A DNA stretch of 20,499 nucleotides from a virus, in the UHGV virus genome UHGV-0263856; one strand, written 5' to 3'. A model generated the notes under the pieces. The model made no database searches and had not been told where the DNA came from. It saw only the letters and a list, made by a program, of their open reading frames with translations. The position numbers were made by a program, and so were the translations under genes. Numbering within the stretch: position 1 is the first letter of the stretch; every line of letters begins with the position of its first letter. This document shows, one piece after another, positions 1-20,499 of the stretch.

Positions 1-209
1 AACCAGATCACCAGGACGACTACTTGCGCTGATTATCTGCTGCAGCATTTCTGCCGGTTTTTCGCACGGATGTTTCCCGGGATAGTACTGCACCGGTTTA
101 TGCAGTACTATCCCGGGAAACATCCGTGCGAAAAACCGGCAGAAATGCTGCAGCAGATAATCAGCGCAAGTAGTCGTCCTGGTGATCTGGTTGCGGATTT
201 TTTCATGGG
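1..209. repeat. Palindromic duplication of an internal 3'-region fragment of the methyltransferase gene
   Basis: 1-101 is identical to 809-909 (same orientation). 103-209 is the exact reverse complement of 792-898. Arms 1-90 and 103-192 form a perfect inverted repeat around a 12-nt centre (91-102). The left arm is cut by the window start. The + strand ORF 70-285 only re-reads the methyltransferase C-terminal residues and then diverges. Confidence 0.9.
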
Positions 210-337
210 ATCCGCGATTATCCCATATACCTACTCGCTGATTGCCCCTCCGCACAGGGGGATTCACCATGCCAGTTTCTTTTAACAAACTCCCCGCAAA
301 ACAGACAACTGTCAACCGTCTGAATTGTGAGACATTT

Positions 338-377: not shown

Positions 378-454
378 TGGCGCGTTGTACTGGATTCGAA
401 CCAGTGACCGATTGCTTAGAAGGCAATTGCTCTGTCCGGCTGAGCTAACAACGC
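378..454 (-). tRNA. argO: tRNA-Arg (anticodon UCU)
   Basis: Reverse complement reads GCGTTGT-TA-GCTC...GAGC-ATTGC-CTTCTAA-GCAAT...GGTTCGAATCC...ACAACGC-G-CCA. Cloverleaf is complete with a 7-bp acceptor stem and encoded CCA; anticodon loop CUUCUAA. Symbol is by analogy with the 933W-type ileZ-argN-argO cluster (from memory). Confidence 0.85.
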
Positions 455-467
455 AGGGTACAGATAA

Positions 468-544
468 TGGACCGCCATCGAGGACTCGAACCCCGCGCAA
501 CCAGCTTCGAAGGCTGGCGCTCTATCCTGATGAGCTAATGGCGG
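468..544 (-). tRNA. argN: tRNA-Arg (anticodon UCG)
   Basis: Reverse complement gives a cloverleaf with D-stem GCTC/GAGC, anticodon stem CCAGC/GCTGG, loop CUUCGAA, T-loop GGTTCGAGTCC and encoded CCA. The acceptor stem starts with C1-G72, which is unusual, so the exact 5' end is uncertain by 1 nt. Confidence 0.8.
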
Positions 545-551
545 TATGTGA

Positions 552-627
552 TGGTGGCCCTTGCTGGATTTGAACCAGCGACCTGGCGATTATGAGTCGC
601 TCGCTCTCACCACTGAGCTAAAGGGCC
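552..627 (-). tRNA. ileZ: tRNA-Ile2-like (anticodon CAU, lysidine type; Met not formally excluded)
   Basis: Reverse complement GGCCCTT-TA-GCTCAGTGGTGAGAGC-G-AGCGA-CTCATAA-TCGCC...GGTTCAAATCC...AAGGGCC-A-CCA. Near-identical in layout to E. coli tRNA-Ile2 (ileX) as recalled. Confidence 0.85.
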
Positions 628-18141: not shown

Positions 18142-18378
18142 ATGGGCAATGTGATTCAACTGGCTCCCAATGAATGGGTTTGTGAAAGCGTTCTTATCGC
18201 AATTACCGGGCTCAAACCAGGCACAATTCTTCGGGCCCGGAAAGAATGCTGGATGGTTGGAAGAGAGTATATTCACGTATCACCAGACGGTAATCCAAAG
18301 CCTTCCAGTGAATGTATGTATAACAGAAAAGCAATAGATGCCTGGGTCGCCTCAATGAAAAACAAACAACCCAGGTGA
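18142..18378 (+). CDS. xis: Excisionase (Xis-like)
   Basis: 78 aa immediately upstream of int. RARKECWMVGREYIHVS resembles lambda Xis (RRWVRECRIF...GREYLFHES). Confidence 0.6.
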   Translation: MGNVIQLAPNEWVCESVLIAITGLKPGTILRARKECWMVGREYIHVSPDGNPKPSSECMYNRKAIDAWVASMKNKQPR

Positions 18379-18433: not shown

Positions 18434-19747
18434 ATGGATAAAGTCAAATATCCAACAGGCGTCGAAAACCACGGCGGCACATTACGCATCTGGTTTAATT
18501 TTAAAGGTAAACGTGTCAGGGAAAATCTTGGTGTCCCTGACACTGCCAAGAACAGGAAGATCGCCGGGGAACTGCGGACATCAGTATGTTTTGCCATCCG
18601 CACAGGAAGCTTTGATTATGCTGCACAGTTCCCTGACTCCCCCAACCTTCAGGCTTTTGGGGTAAGTAAAAAAGAAATTACGGTGAAGGAACTTGAAGAA
18701 AAGTGGCTGGATCTGAAACGAATGGAAATCTCTGCAAATGCATTCAATCGCTATGAATCCGTTGCAAGAACGATGGTTCCGAAAATTGGAGGCAGTAGAC
18801 TGGTGTCATCGGTAACCAAAGAGGAATTGCTGTATATCAGGAAAGATTTGCTTACCGGGTATCAGAATTCAACGAAAAACAAAGCAGCAGCAAAAGGACG
18901 GAGCGTCGTTACTGTAAATTATTACATGACGACAATCGCTGGAATGTTTCAGTTTGCTGCAGATCACGGTTACTTAGAAGCAAATCCCTTCCAGGGAATT
19001 AAGCCTCTTAAAAGAGCCAGGGCAGAGCCAGATCCGCTAACTCGTGACGAATTTATTCGCCTGATAGATGCTTGCCGACATCAGCAGACGAAAAACCTGT
19101 GGTCATTGGCTGTGTACACAGGAATGCGTCACGGTGAACTGGTCTCCCTGGCCTGGGAAGATATCGATCTGAAGGCAGGAACAATTACCATCAGGCGCAA
19201 TTATACGAAACTTGGTGAGTTCACTCTACCGAAAACTGAAGCAAGCACAAACAGGGTTGTGCACCTTATCCAGCCCGCTATCAGTGTCCTGAAAAATCAG
19301 GCTGAAATGACAAGACTGGGTAAGCAGTACAACATCAAGGTGCAACTACGTGAATATGGACGTTCAGTGAACCATGAATGTACTTTCGTGTTTAACCCTC
19401 AAGTGGTTAGAAAAAGCGAACAGGTAGGTTTTGTCTACAAAGTCGATTCTGTAGGTGACTCATGGGAAACAGCCATTAAGCGTGCAGGGATCAGGCATCG
19501 AAAGGCATACCAGTCACGACACACTTATGCGTGCTGGTCATTATCTGCCGGAGCAAACCCAAGCTTCATTGCCAGCCAGATGGGCCATGCAAGTGCCCAG
19601 ATGGTATTCAATGTATACGGAGCATGGATGACTGACAGCAATGCAGAACAGATCGCAATGCTGAATCAGAAGCTGACAGATTATGTCCCAATGATGCCCC
19701 ATAGTCACCAAAGTGACACCAGAGGCTTATTAAAATCAGTAAGTTAA
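18434..19747 (+). CDS. int: Tyrosine-type site-specific integrase
   Basis: 437 aa. GGAGG SD. C-terminal catalytic region TGMRHGEL...SRHTYACW...GHAS...VYGAWM (R, HxxR, Y). Confidence 0.9.
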   Translation: MDKVKYPTGVENHGGTLRIWFNFKGKRVRENLGVPDTAKNRKIAGELRTSVCFAIRTGSFDYAAQFPDSPNLQAFGVSKKEITVKELEEKWLDLKRMEISANAFNRYESVARTMVPKIGGSRLVSSVTKEELLYIRKDLLTGYQNSTKNKAAAKGRSVVTVNYYMTTIAGMFQFAADHGYLEANPFQGIKPLKRARAEPDPLTRDEFIRLIDACRHQQTKNLWSLAVYTGMRHGELVSLAWEDIDLKAGTITIRRNYTKLGEFTLPKTEASTNRVVHLIQPAISVLKNQAEMTRLGKQYNIKVQLREYGRSVNHECTFVFNPQVVRKSEQVGFVYKVDSVGDSWETAIKRAGIRHRKAYQSRHTYACWSLSAGANPSFIASQMGHASAQMVFNVYGAWMTDSNAEQIAMLNQKLTDYVPMMPHSHQSDTRGLLKSVS

Positions 19748-19775
19748 TCCTTAATACCCGTCATGTTAACTGCGT
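19745..19775. other. Prophage-host junction (int-proximal att site) within the yecE-like reading frame
   Basis: The int stop is at 19745-19747. The yecE-like frame is open from 19717 and reads ...RHVNCVEGNTT across the junction. The exact core cannot be defined because the other prophage end is outside the window. Confidence 0.4.
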
Positions 19776-20499
19776 GGAGGGTAACACCACGCTTTATGCC
19801 CTGCCGAAACCCGAGGTTGTCCTGCGCTGGCGTGAGCAGACCACAGATGACTTCCGCTTCTGTTTTAAGTTTCCGGCGACCATTTCGCATCAGGCAGCAT
19901 TACGGCATTGCGATGATTTAGTGACTGAATTTTTGACCCGCATGTCACCGTTGGCTCCGCGCATTGGACAATACTGGCTGCAACTGCCTGCCACATTCGG
20001 CCCACGGGAGCTGCCTGCGCTTTGGCATTTTCTCGATTCTCTTCCCGGTGAATTTAATTATGGGGTGGAAGTCCGCCATCCACAGTTTTTCGCCAAAGGG
20101 GAAGAGGAACAAACGCTTAATCGCGGTTTACATCAGCGCGGCGTTAATCGGGTGATTTTAGACAGCCGCCCGGTTCATGCAGCACGTCCACACAGTGAAG
20201 CTATTCGCGACGCTCAACGAAAAAAACCTAAAGTTCCGGTACATGCTGTACTGACGGCGAAAAATCCACTGATCCGTTTTATCGGTAGTGATGATATGAC
20301 GCAAAACCGGGAGTTATTTCAGGTCTGGTTACAAAAATTAGCACAGTGGCATCAGACCACTACGCCTTATCTTTTTTTACATACGCCAGATATTGCCCAG
20401 GCCCCGGAACTGGTACATACCCTGTGGGAAGACTTACGTAAAACGCTTCCAGAGATCGGAGCAGTTCCGGCTATTCCACAGCAATCTTCTCTTTTCTGA
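19774..20499 (+). CDS. yecE: YecE-like DUF72 protein, 5' end displaced by the prophage
   Basis: 241-aa ORF running to the window end. The upstream frame has no ATG between the stop at 19714 and GTG 19774. Identification as yecE is from memory of the protein and of yecE as a known Stx-phage integration site. Confidence 0.55.
   Translation: MEGNTTLYALPKPEVVLRWREQTTDDFRFCFKFPATISHQAALRHCDDLVTEFLTRMSPLAPRIGQYWLQLPATFGPRELPALWHFLDSLPGEFNYGVEVRHPQFFAKGEEEQTLNRGLHQRGVNRVILDSRPVHAARPHSEAIRDAQRKKPKVPVHAVLTAKNPLIRFIGSDDMTQNRELFQVWLQKLAQWHQTTTPYLFLHTPDIAQAPELVHTLWEDLRKTLPEIGAVPAIPQQSSLF

What the first reader, a model, noticed from the sequence alone, without database searches (positions are those of the whole stretch)
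19714..19775. Integration inside yecE with the reading frame kept open across the junction
The int stop at 19745-19747 is followed immediately by yecE-like coding sequence, and the yecE frame is open from 19717, so the phage supplies a substitute 5' segment. No ATG or SD is present before GTG 19774, so host gene function is probably altered. yecE is a known Stx-phage target (from memory).
Basis: partly seen in the sequence, partly recalled or inferred. Interest (0 to 1): 0.4.

Follow-up and report, generated by a model that had tools for sequence, protein, structure and literature searches.

The report
Prophage junction inside host gene yecE
This is the ordinary, already documented end of a lambda-like prophage that has inserted into the E. 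coli gene yecE; the open reading frame across the junction is a coincidence and does not show that the phage repairs the gene.

Summary
The int ORF (18434-19747) stops at TAA 19745-47. Identity to chromosomal yecE starts 18 nt later, at 19766. The yecE frame is open from 19717, and its only canonical start is GTG 19774, which is native codon V32 and has no Shine-Dalgarno.

It is the int-proximal att junction of a phiP27-family prophage:
- The 11-bp repeat TTAACTGCGTG (19766-19776) equals the attL annotated in phage phiP27. It recurs at the far junction next to yecD in a genome identical to the window over the junction (19600-20499).
- An allele difference in another lysogen places strand exchange inside the 7 bp TTAACTG.
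- Around the core lie core-type half-sites, an IHF-consensus site and two arm-type sites (TGYCCCA) inside int's last codons. Five more arm-type sites sit on the far arm.
- At least 506 of 5426 complete E. coli genomes have an integrase abutting yecE here.

The "frame kept open / substitute 5' segment" reading fails:
- 19 open codons is what chance gives (P about 0.3-0.5).
- The phage stretch resembles yecE only in the 13 nt next to the core.
- In 11 relatives from other genera the open stretch is 6-42 codons, and only one has a canonical start.

yecE is most likely inactivated while the prophage is in place and restored on excision. This is already known and of low interest.

The parts
18142..18378 (+). 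Excisionase (xis) gene, 78 aa
   Evidence: ORF. Pfam PF06806 'putative excisionase' at E=9.5e-33. Annotated as excisionase in the 09-02E genome at the equivalent position, and in phiP27.
18434..19747 (+). Tyrosine integrase gene (437 aa), stop TAA 19745-19747
   Evidence: Pfam Arm-DNA-bind_2 (residues 7-70, E=1e-23) plus Phage_integrase (residues 202-395, E=3e-18). 94.8% nt identical to phiP27 int and 99.9% to phage PhiR49_2 int. 95% aa identity to phiP27 Int.
19684..19701 (+). Two arm-type integrase binding sites (TGTCCCA 19684-19690 and TGCCCCA 19695-19701), inside int codons for V-P-M-M-P-H
   Evidence: A 19-mer here matches 17/19 a 19-mer on the far prophage arm (L005 2143-2161); 0 of 300 shuffles reach that. 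The far arm carries 5 copies at +128..+180 from the core. The same two sites lie at -82/-71 or -81/-70 in AST217, FHI_NMBU_11 and phi297. Binding itself is inferred.
19714..19716 (+). TGA stop that closes the yecE reading frame on the phage side (a second in-frame stop, TAG, lies at 19702-19704)
   Evidence: Direct reading; translation.
19734..19746 (+). IHF-consensus site AATCAGTAAGTTA (WATCARNNNNTTR) between the arm sites and the core, overlapping the int stop
   Evidence: One of only 2 matches in the window, so not significant alone. It sits at -32 from the core in all 14 window-type junctions examined, with variation only in the NNNN positions. It also encodes Int's last residues, so the conservation is ambiguous. 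The function is inferred by analogy with the lambda H' site.
19757..19765 (+). Phage-side core-type site region (CCCGTCATG; half-site GTCATG abuts the overlap)
   Evidence: 8/13 identity to yecE only here. CCGYCAY is conserved in three integrase lineages and in attB. It forms a dyad with CGTGAC on the other side of TTAACTG in phiP27 attP. Inferred binding site.
19766..19776 (.). att core: 11-bp direct repeat TTAACTGCGTG; strand exchange inferred within the first 7 bp, TTAACTG (19766-19772)
   Evidence: Identical to the annotated phiP27 attL and attR. It is repeated at the yecD-side junction, L005 2016-2026. In AST217 the far junction has ...TTAACTGCGTG and the int-side junction ...TTAACTGTGTG. 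Position 8 therefore segregates with the right flank.
19766..20499 (+). 3' portion of host gene yecE (codon 29 position 2 to the stop; 241 codons from V32 = GTG 19774)
   Evidence: Megablast to intact yecE starts at window 19766 or 19754, depending on the allele. Alignment to the JJ1887 and MC4100 yecE genes. Pfam DUF72. Followed by yecN-cmoA-cmoB in the 09-02E relative.

Best explanation
Positions 19714-19775 span the integrase-proximal attachment junction of a phiP27-family lambdoid prophage inserted in the E. coli gene yecE. This junction is attL in the lambda/phiP27 convention and is labelled attR in the phi297 record.

Mechanism. Sequence features are shown here; binding and catalysis are inferred from lambda-type integrases.
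- The prophage's heterobivalent tyrosine integrase binds arm-type sites TG(T/C)CCCA. Two lie in the int-proximal arm, inside its own last codons. Five lie on the distal arm.
- It also binds core-type half-sites that flank a 7-bp overlap, TTAACTG, probably with IHF bending at AATCAGTAAGTTA.
- It exchanged strands between attP and codons 29-31 of yecE.

Consequences.
- yecD plus the first 31 yecE codons stay at the far end of the prophage, where the frame stops 5 codons into phage DNA.
- The remaining 241 codons lie 26 nt downstream of the int stop, on the same strand, with no terminator between.
- The yecE remnant has no canonical start codon or ribosome-binding site. It lacks the conserved N-terminal segment (MIYIGLPQW...). 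yecE is therefore most likely null while the prophage is integrated.
- Int plus Xis excision would restore it exactly.
- The in-frame open stretch 19717-19773 is an incidental by-product of DNA largely taken up by candidate recombination-site elements and the end of int.
For: Junction and repeat.
- Homology to intact yecE begins at 19766.
- The 11-bp repeat is present at both prophage ends in genome 09-02E. That genome is 100% identical to window 19600-20499 and has a single yecE locus.
- The repeat equals the attL/attR annotated in phiP27, AJ298298.

Integrase and excisionase.
- Arm-binding and catalytic domains are both present.
- An excisionase gene lies upstream.

Recombination-site elements.
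- Arm-type sites: the two arms share a 17/19 match that 0/300 shuffles reach. There are 2 plus 5 copies at fixed distances, conserved across phiP27, AST217, FHI_NMBU_11 and phi297.
- Overlap mapping comes from the C/T polymorphism in AST217.
- An IHF consensus sits at -32 in 14 of 14 window-type junctions.

Expression of the remnant.
- No promoter-like or terminator-like site lies between int and the remnant.
- There is no SD at GTG 19774.
- The native N-terminus aligns from residue 1 with the solved DUF72 protein 1VPY. The deleted part is therefore within the conserved fold.

Prevalence and prior knowledge.
- At least 506 of 5426 complete E. coli genomes carry an integrase-yecE junction covering at least 80% of a 401-bp junction probe.
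- Literature: yecE is listed as an Stx-phage site citing the phiP27 paper. Stx1a, Stx2a, Stx2d and non-Stx phages occur at yecE with a 21-bp att.
Against: - Nothing here measures expression. PGAP annotates a 256-aa DUF72 protein starting at ATT 19729 in the identical junction. A weak AGAGG precedes ATT 19729 and ATC 19735. Low-level translation of an N-terminally altered protein therefore cannot be excluded.
- Integrase, IHF and Xis binding to the proposed sites, and the 7-bp overlap, are inferred from sequence comparison, not shown biochemically.
- The far junction was read in a relative (09-02E), not in the window's own assembly. No genome in the collection matches the full window exactly; the best is 99.9%.
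Confidence: 0.93

Rival explanations
1. The phage-host fusion ORF is translated. Initiation could be at a near-cognate codon (ATT 19729 or ATC 19735, behind AGAGG 19721-19725). Alternatively, ribosomes could re-initiate at GTG 19774 after terminating int 26 nt upstream. Either route would give an N-terminally altered or truncated YecE whose expression is tied to int transcription.
For: - The frame is open from 19717.
- The AGAGG duplex energy is -5.8 kcal/mol.
- PGAP models exactly this protein, WP_050575735.1, from ATT.
- There is no terminator between int and the remnant.
- The 19717 ORF scores 11 bits more against Pfam DUF72 than the GTG-19774 ORF.
Against: - ATT and ATC are very poor initiators (general knowledge).
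- AGAGG is only at the 10th percentile of random positions in the window, and it is 3 nt from ATT.
- GTG 19774 has no SD.
- The extra Pfam bits come from Arg-His-x-Asn-Cys. These residues are encoded by the core and the adjoining core-type site.
- The open frame is not conserved in 11 relatives, and 2 of them have a stop in the spacer.
- The product would lack the conserved N-terminal segment that aligns with 1VPY.
Confidence: 0.05
2. Gene-restoring integration: the phage carries a diverged copy of the yecE 5' end so that insertion rebuilds a working gene. Phage 21 and e14 do this for the 3' end of icd, and many phages do it for tRNA genes.
For: - Similarity CCCGTCAT vs CCCGCCAC next to the core differs only at third-codon positions.
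- In two other integrase lineages at the same site (FHI_NMBU_11 and phi297), the frame is open for 32 codons back to an in-frame GTG.
- In those lineages the phage peptide resembles the native N-terminus in register: P=0.0009 and P=0.011.
- The FHI chimera scores 167.9 bits against DUF72, versus 171.5 for the native protein.
Against: For the window's lineage:
- There are two in-frame stops (19702, 19714) and no canonical start.
- The peptide similarity test gives P=0.28.
- DNA identity beyond 13 nt is 23/72.
- The frame is not conserved across 11 relatives.

For the FHI and phi297 lineages:
- The 47-nt spacer peptide differs non-conservatively between the two lineages.
- The GTG is part of an arm-type site.
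- The conserved IGxxxW-type first strand is absent.
- De Greve's record annotates yecE as partial.
Confidence: 0.02
3. The adjacency is an assembly chimera, or a fossil junction of a decayed prophage that can no longer excise.
For: - The first 212 bases of the window are a fold-back duplication that looks like an assembly artefact.
- No genome in the collection matches the full window at 100%.
Against: - The same junction occurs base-for-base in complete genomes: 09-02E and SF-088 at 100%. It also occurs in at least 506 genomes overall.
- int and xis are intact, and both cores are intact in the relative.
- A near-identical element is deposited as phage PhiR49_2, a complete genome from ECOR13.
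- The yecE remnant shows no decay: up to 99.9% identity to intact alleles, with an intact frame to the native stop.
Confidence: 0.03

Closest known systems
Stx2e phage phiP27 (AJ298298 / NC_003356; Recktenwald and Schmidt 2002), integrated in yecE
   Same: - The integrase is 94.8% nt and 95% aa identical.
- The excisionase-integrase-att order is the same.
- The annotated 11-bp attL/attR, TTAACTGCGTG, is identical to window 19766-19776.
- The arm-type site arrays on both arms are the same.
   Different: - The closest relatives of the window's prophage (09-02E, strain 167) carry lambda-like head and tail genes. They have no stx genes between the tRNA cluster and the esterase gene.
- phiP27 is an Stx2e phage with a different morphogenesis module.
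- AST217 carries the phiP27-like structural module with the same int type.
- This is a different phage chassis using the same integration module.
Phage phi297 / EH297 (AJ431361; De Greve et al. 2002) and the Stx1a, Stx2a and Stx2d phages at yecE in O145:H28, O157:NM and O80:H2 (PMC8112680, PMC9751135)
   Same: - They use the same crossover position in yecE...TTAACTGCGTG GAGGG.
- They have the same arm-type motifs at -81/-70.
- They have the same xis-int-att layout.
   Different: - The integrase belongs to a different lineage: 428 aa, 75% aa identity.
- There are 47 nt rather than 18 nt between the int stop and the core.
- The att is annotated as 19 or 21 bp, with mismatches to attB (CCGTCACATTAACTGCGTG[GA]).
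- In the yecE frame they have an in-frame GTG 30 codons upstream, which the window lacks.
Phage lambda attL (B-O-P') architecture
   Same: - The integrase is heterobivalent, with an arm-binding domain.
- The overlap is inferred to be 7 bp, flanked by imperfect inverted core-type sites.
- An IHF-consensus site lies between the core and the int-proximal arm sites.
- There are more arm-type sites on the distal arm, and xis lies upstream of int.
   Different: - Different sequences and a different target.
- The int-proximal arm sites and the IHF-like site lie inside or overlap the int coding region. The int stop is only 18 nt from the core.
- The target is inside a protein-coding gene, near its 5' end, rather than intergenic.
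- No binding data exist.
Gene-restoring insertions (phage 21 and e14 in icd; tRNA-gene integrating phages)
   Same: Integration occurs within a gene, with some phage-host similarity next to the crossover.
   Different: In those cases the phage carries a functional replacement for the displaced gene end. Here the similarity stops after about 13 nt. No start codon or ribosome-binding site is supplied, and the frame is not conserved.

Membership tests
Lambda-type tyrosine-integrase prophage attachment junction | Tyrosine recombinase catalytic domain encoded next to the junction | tested here: met
   PF00589 at E=3e-18, residues 202-395. Candidate active-site residues are invariant in the 4-integrase alignment; they were not analysed further.
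Lambda-type tyrosine-integrase prophage attachment junction | N-terminal arm-binding domain, with matching repeated arm-type sites on both prophage arms | tested here: met
   PF12167 at E=1e-23. TGYCCCA occurs x2 at -82/-71 and x5 at +128..+180. The inter-arm 17/19 match is reached by 0/300 shuffles. The sites are conserved in phiP27.
Lambda-type tyrosine-integrase prophage attachment junction | Short direct repeat (core) at both prophage ends, equal to a single copy in unoccupied attB | tested here: met
   TTAACTGCGTG lies at window 19766, at L005 2016 (the far junction), and once in the intact yecE of MC4100.
Lambda-type tyrosine-integrase prophage attachment junction | Excisionase gene adjacent to int | tested here: met
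   PF06806 at E=9.5e-33 for ORF 18142-18378.
Lambda-type tyrosine-integrase prophage attachment junction | Demonstrated integration and excision activity | not testable with these tools
   Only indirect evidence is available. A near-identical element is deposited as a phage genome, PhiR49_2. Alleles in AST217 are consistent with a reciprocal exchange.
phiP27-type yecE integration module | Integrase closely related to phiP27 Int, with an identical att core | tested here: met
   94.8% nt and 95% aa identity. The core is identical to the annotated attL and attR.
Shiga-toxin-converting phage | stxA and stxB genes downstream of Q and the tRNA cluster | tested here: inconclusive
   The window starts 377 nt beyond the tRNA cluster, so the stx slot is mostly outside it. 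The closest complete relatives (09-02E, strain 167) have only about 490 bp and no stx between the tRNAs and the esterase gene.
Gene-restoring integration (phage supplies a working replacement gene end) | Phage segment homologous to the displaced gene portion up to the gene's end | tested here: not met
   Identity is 8/13 next to the core, then 23/72, about the background level. The peptide similarity test gives P=0.28.
Gene-restoring integration (phage supplies a working replacement gene end) | Start codon and ribosome-binding site supplied in frame | tested here: not met
   There is no ATG, GTG or TTG between the stop at 19714 and codon V32. GTG 19774 has no SD.
Gene-restoring integration (phage supplies a working replacement gene end) | Open frame conserved among related phages at the same site | tested here: not met
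   The open stretch is 6-42 codons in 11 relatives. Stops lie within the spacer in L017 and L019. Only one relative has a canonical start.
YecE / DUF72 | Downstream ORF belongs to DUF72 and is the chromosomal yecE at its native locus | tested here: met
   PF01904 at E=6e-43. 97-99.9% nt identity to yecE across E. coli. yecN-cmoA-cmoB follow in the relative, and yecD-yecE' sits at the far junction.

The most novel reading that the evidence does not exclude
The fusion across the junction might not be inert. In this lineage, a low level of an N-terminally altered YecE could be made from ATT 19729 or ATC 19735, or by re-initiation at GTG 19774 after int. More interesting are the phi297 and FHI_NMBU_11 lineages at the same site. 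There, an in-frame GTG embedded in an arm-type site inside int's 3' end opens a 271-aa chimera. Its phage-encoded N-terminus resembles the native one in register (P about 0.001-0.01). This would be a gene-restoring insertion at the 5' end of a gene, encoded in overlap with the integrase gene and its own binding sites.
Probability: 0.05. Interest if true: 0.45.

Novelty: already known. Interest (0 to 1): 0.1.

Why it matters
The practical value is for annotation.
- It pins the prophage boundary to the base: core 19766-19776, with exchange within TTAACTG.
- It shows that the yecE remnant should be treated as a disrupted gene.
- RefSeq often hides this disruption by calling the remnant a complete DUF72 protein from ATT or ATA start codons.
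- yecE occupancy is used as a typing marker for Stx and related prophages. About 9% of complete E. coli genomes have this site occupied.

No new biology follows, unless the chimeric ORFs of the phi297-type lineages prove to be expressed.

Tried and rejected
- **Substitute yecE 5' end.** I looked for extended phage-yecE homology upstream of the core, as expected if the phage carried one. I found none beyond 13 nt and rejected the idea.
- **Significance of the open frame.** I tested the 19-codon open frame with local shuffles and against all positions of the window. It is not unusual.
- **Promoters and terminators.** I scanned between int and the remnant and on the far arm. The scan gave nothing informative and nothing above shuffled expectation.
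- **Motif counts in the whole window.** Counts of ATGCCCCA, TGYCCCA and the IHF pattern are at chance level. Only their clustering, their fixed distances and their conservation across relatives carry weight.
- **The original phiP27 paper (PMC127862).** It is not held. I relied on its GenBank annotation and on reviews that cite it.
- **The other end of the PhiR49_2 record (L011).** It does not contain the core, so it was not usable for the repeat.
- **Integrase homologues of 47-75% identity in other Enterobacterales.** 67 of the 78 loci are not followed by yecE, so they say nothing about this site.
- **Structure prediction.** Not run. A model of the truncated protein would not decide whether it is translated.
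Full report
**1. What is at the coordinates**

- The + strand carries an excisionase-like ORF (18142-18378; PF06806, E=9.5e-33).
- It is followed by a 437-aa integrase ORF (18434-19747) ending in TAA 19745-19747.
- The integrase has an arm-DNA-binding domain (PF12167) and a tyrosine-recombinase catalytic domain (PF00589).
- Downstream, the ORF in the frame of GTG 19774 runs to TGA 20497-20499, which is the last base of the window. It is DUF72/YecE (E=6e-43).
- In that frame there is a TGA at 19714-19716 and a TAG at 19702-19704. From 19717 to 19773 there is no ATG, GTG or TTG.
- Two details need correcting. Exact identity to chromosomal yecE starts at 19766, 18 nt after the int stop, not immediately. 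A weak AGAGG at 19721-19725 precedes the near-cognate codons ATT 19729 and ATC 19735.

**2. It is a prophage-chromosome junction at a known att site**

- A 900-nt probe across the junction hits all 5426 complete E. coli genomes. In genomes with intact yecE the match begins at window 19766, or at 19754 in alleles with fewer mismatches.
- Alignment to the intact yecE of JJ1887 and MC4100 places the breakpoint in codons 29-32 of the 272-codon gene. GTG 19774 is native Val32.
- The integrase is 94.8% nt identical to that of the Stx2e phage phiP27, and 99.9% identical to that of phage PhiR49_2 from ECOR13.
- The phiP27 record annotates an 11-bp attL next to int and an 11-bp attR at the other end. 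That sequence, TTAACTGCGTG, is window 19766-19776.
- In E. coli 09-02E, which is 100% identical to window 19600-20499 and has a single yecE locus, the far end of the prophage lies about 49 kb upstream.
- There, yecD and yecE codons 1-31 are followed by the same TTAACTGCGTG (L005 2016-2026) and then phage DNA. The yecE frame stops 5 codons later...FNCV-IRNF*.

**3. Anatomy of the recombination site**

*Overlap*
- In lysogen AST217 the far junction reads TTAACTGCGTG and the int-side junction reads TTAACTGTGTG.
- Position 8 therefore travels with the right-hand flank at both junctions.
- Strand exchange must have taken place within the first 7 bp, TTAACTG. This assumes the host allele carried T, as JJ1887 does.

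*Core-type sites*
- TTAACTG is flanked by imperfect inverted half-sites.
- These are GTCATG / CGTGAC in phiP27 attP, GCCACT / CGTGGA in attB, and GTCATG / CGTGGA at the window junction.
- The motif CCGYCAY to the left of the overlap is shared by attB and by three integrase lineages.
- This accounts for the only phage-yecE similarity outside the core: 8/13 nt, then 23/72, about the background level.

*IHF-like site*
- AATCAGTAAGTTA (19734-19746) fits WATCARNNNNTTR.
- A single match is not significant in 20.5 kb: 2 were found and 1.85 expected.
- It lies at -32 from the core in all 14 window-type junctions examined, with variation only in the four unspecified positions.
- It overlaps the last int codons, so coding constraint is an alternative reason for the conservation.

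*Arm-type sites*
- TGTCCCA (19684) and TGCCCCA (19695) lie at -82 and -71, inside the int codons for V-P-M-M-P-H.
- The far arm has five copies at +128 to +180.
- A 19-mer is shared 17/19 between the two arms, and 0 of 300 shuffles reach that.
- The arrays are conserved in phiP27, AST217, FHI_NMBU_11 and phi297, although surrounding sequence diverges.

The layout (core, IHF-like site, two int-proximal arm sites, more arm sites on the distal arm, xis upstream of int) is that of lambda attL. It is compressed so that part of the arm lies within int. Protein binding is inferred, not shown.

**4. Is the open frame meaningful?**

- *Chance.* 19 stop-free codons occur in 29% of local shuffles and upstream of 48% of arbitrary positions in the window.
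- *Initiation.* GTG 19774 has no SD: +1.2 kcal/mol, versus -10.6 for int. The AGAGG before ATT and ATC is only at the 10th percentile of background. No promoter or terminator was detected between int and the remnant.
- *Homology.* The phage-encoded peptide HQRLIKISKLILNT shows no in-register similarity to native residues 13-26 (P=0.28).
- *Conservation.* A scan of one genome per species found 11 prophages with window-type integrases (81-89% aa identity). They are in Citrobacter, Kluyvera, Pseudescherichia, Superficieibacter and Enterobacter, inserted at the same yecE codon. In them the open stretch upstream of Val32 is 6, 10, 17, 17, 17, 18, 23, 23, 23, 34 and 42 codons. Two have a stop between the int stop and the core. 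Only one has a canonical in-frame start.

The frame is therefore not 'kept' open, and the phage does not supply a functional 5' segment.

The native N-terminus (MIYIGLPQW...) aligns from residue 1 with the solved DUF72 protein 1VPY/1ZTV. The displaced 31 residues are therefore part of the conserved domain. The most likely state is a yecE null allele that is reversible by excision.

**5. How common and how well known**

- At least 506 of 5426 complete E. coli genomes have an integrase abutting yecE that covers at least 80% of a 401-bp junction probe. 181 best hits fall in the 60-80% identity band, and the sampled divergent junction (FHI_NMBU_11, 77%) falls there.
- A third lineage, phi297/EH297, is carried by Stx1a, Stx2a and Stx2d phages of O145:H28, O157:NM and O80:H2. 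It uses the same position.
- Its att is annotated as 19 bp (CCGTCACATTAACTGCGTG, AJ431361) or as a 21-bp duplication (LC567842).
- Reviews list yecE among the Stx-phage sites, citing the phiP27 paper.
- Nakamura et al. describe Stx1a, Stx2a, Stx2d and non-Stx prophages at yecE, and a yecE-derived attB inside another prophage.
- An O80:H2 Stx2d phage was shown experimentally to lysogenise at yecE.
- The finding is therefore already known in kind and in detail.

**6. The prophage**

- The window holds a lambdoid early region. It has a DNA methyltransferase gene (677-1726) and three tRNA genes (378-627), as in Stx phages.
- Relatives annotate Q antiterminator, replication and repressor genes over the equivalent region; these were not mapped in the window itself.
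- The best full-length matches (99.9%; strain 167 and others) and 09-02E have lambda-like structural genes. They have no stx between the tRNAs and the esterase gene.
- This lineage is therefore probably a non-Stx prophage that shares the phiP27 integration module. The window itself cannot settle the point.

**7. Side lead not excluded**

- In the FHI_NMBU_11 and phi297 lineages the yecE frame is open for 32 codons, back to a GTG that is part of an arm-type site.
- The resulting 271-aa chimera scores 167.9 bits on DUF72. The native protein scores 171.5 and the truncated form 147.8.
- The phage-encoded N-terminus resembles the native one in register: P=0.0009 and P=0.011.
- Against function, the two lineages differ non-conservatively in the 47-nt spacer peptide. 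The conserved first strand motif is missing. The test was also chosen after seeing the data.
- This is recorded as a low-probability lead. It does not apply to the window's lineage.

**Verdict**

This is a correctly observed, ordinary and already documented prophage att junction in yecE. The reading-frame feature is incidental.

Noticed in passing
window 1-212 (versus 789-909): The window opens with a fold-back. Positions 1-101 copy 809-909, and 101-212 are an inverted copy of 789-900; both come from the interior of the methyltransferase gene. The closest complete genome (strain 167) lacks this; its match starts at window 210. It is probably a contig-end or assembly artefact.
   Followed up: partly
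window 378-627 (minus strand): There are three tRNA genes: Arg-tct, Arg-tcg and a CAT-anticodon tRNA that RefSeq calls Ile. They lie downstream of a DNA methyltransferase gene, the module that precedes stx in Stx phages. The nearest complete relatives have only about 490 bp and no stx between these tRNAs and a SASA-family esterase gene.
   Followed up: partly
window 19729 (L004 20130); L008 1763: RefSeq/PGAP annotates the disrupted yecE remnant as a complete DUF72 protein by using non-canonical starts. It uses ATT in the window-type junction (WP_050575735.1) and ATA in FHI_NMBU_11 (WP_053295293.1), and sometimes gives the gene name yecE. The gene disruption is therefore invisible in the annotation.
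   Followed up: partly
L008 1727-1819; L014 1846-1938: Two other integrase lineages at the same yecE site (FHI_NMBU_11 type and phi297/EH297 type) have an in-frame GTG 30 codons upstream of Val32, inside an arm-type site and the int 3' end. FHI has AAGGAG 10 nt upstream of it. The phage-encoded N-terminus resembles native YecE in register (P=0.0009 and P=0.011).
   Followed up: partly
L016-L024, L052, L074 (int end to +40): Window-type integrases in Citrobacter, Kluyvera, Pseudescherichia, Superficieibacter and Enterobacter sit at the same yecE codon. The 7-bp overlap varies (TTAACTG, TCAACTG, TCAATTG) by synonymous changes in the Phe-Asn-Cys codons. The phage cores therefore seem to track host codon usage at the target.
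   Followed up: no
L025-L051 and others: Integrase homologues of 47-75% identity in many Enterobacterales (67 of the 78 loci) are not followed by yecE. The family evidently uses other targets too. Those targets were not identified.
   Followed up: no
L010 2440-2560 (E. coli 23CRST022): A phage bet gene is fused directly to yecE at the equivalent of window 19808, about 40 nt inside the att site. This is a different, apparently illegitimate junction or a deletion at the same locus.
   Followed up: no
L005 2221-2290 (far arm of the 09-02E prophage): A LexA-box-like CTGT-N8-ACAG and a promoter-like TTGACA-N18-AAAAAT lie just upstream of a DinI-like gene. This is the last phage gene before the yecD-side junction.
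   Followed up: no
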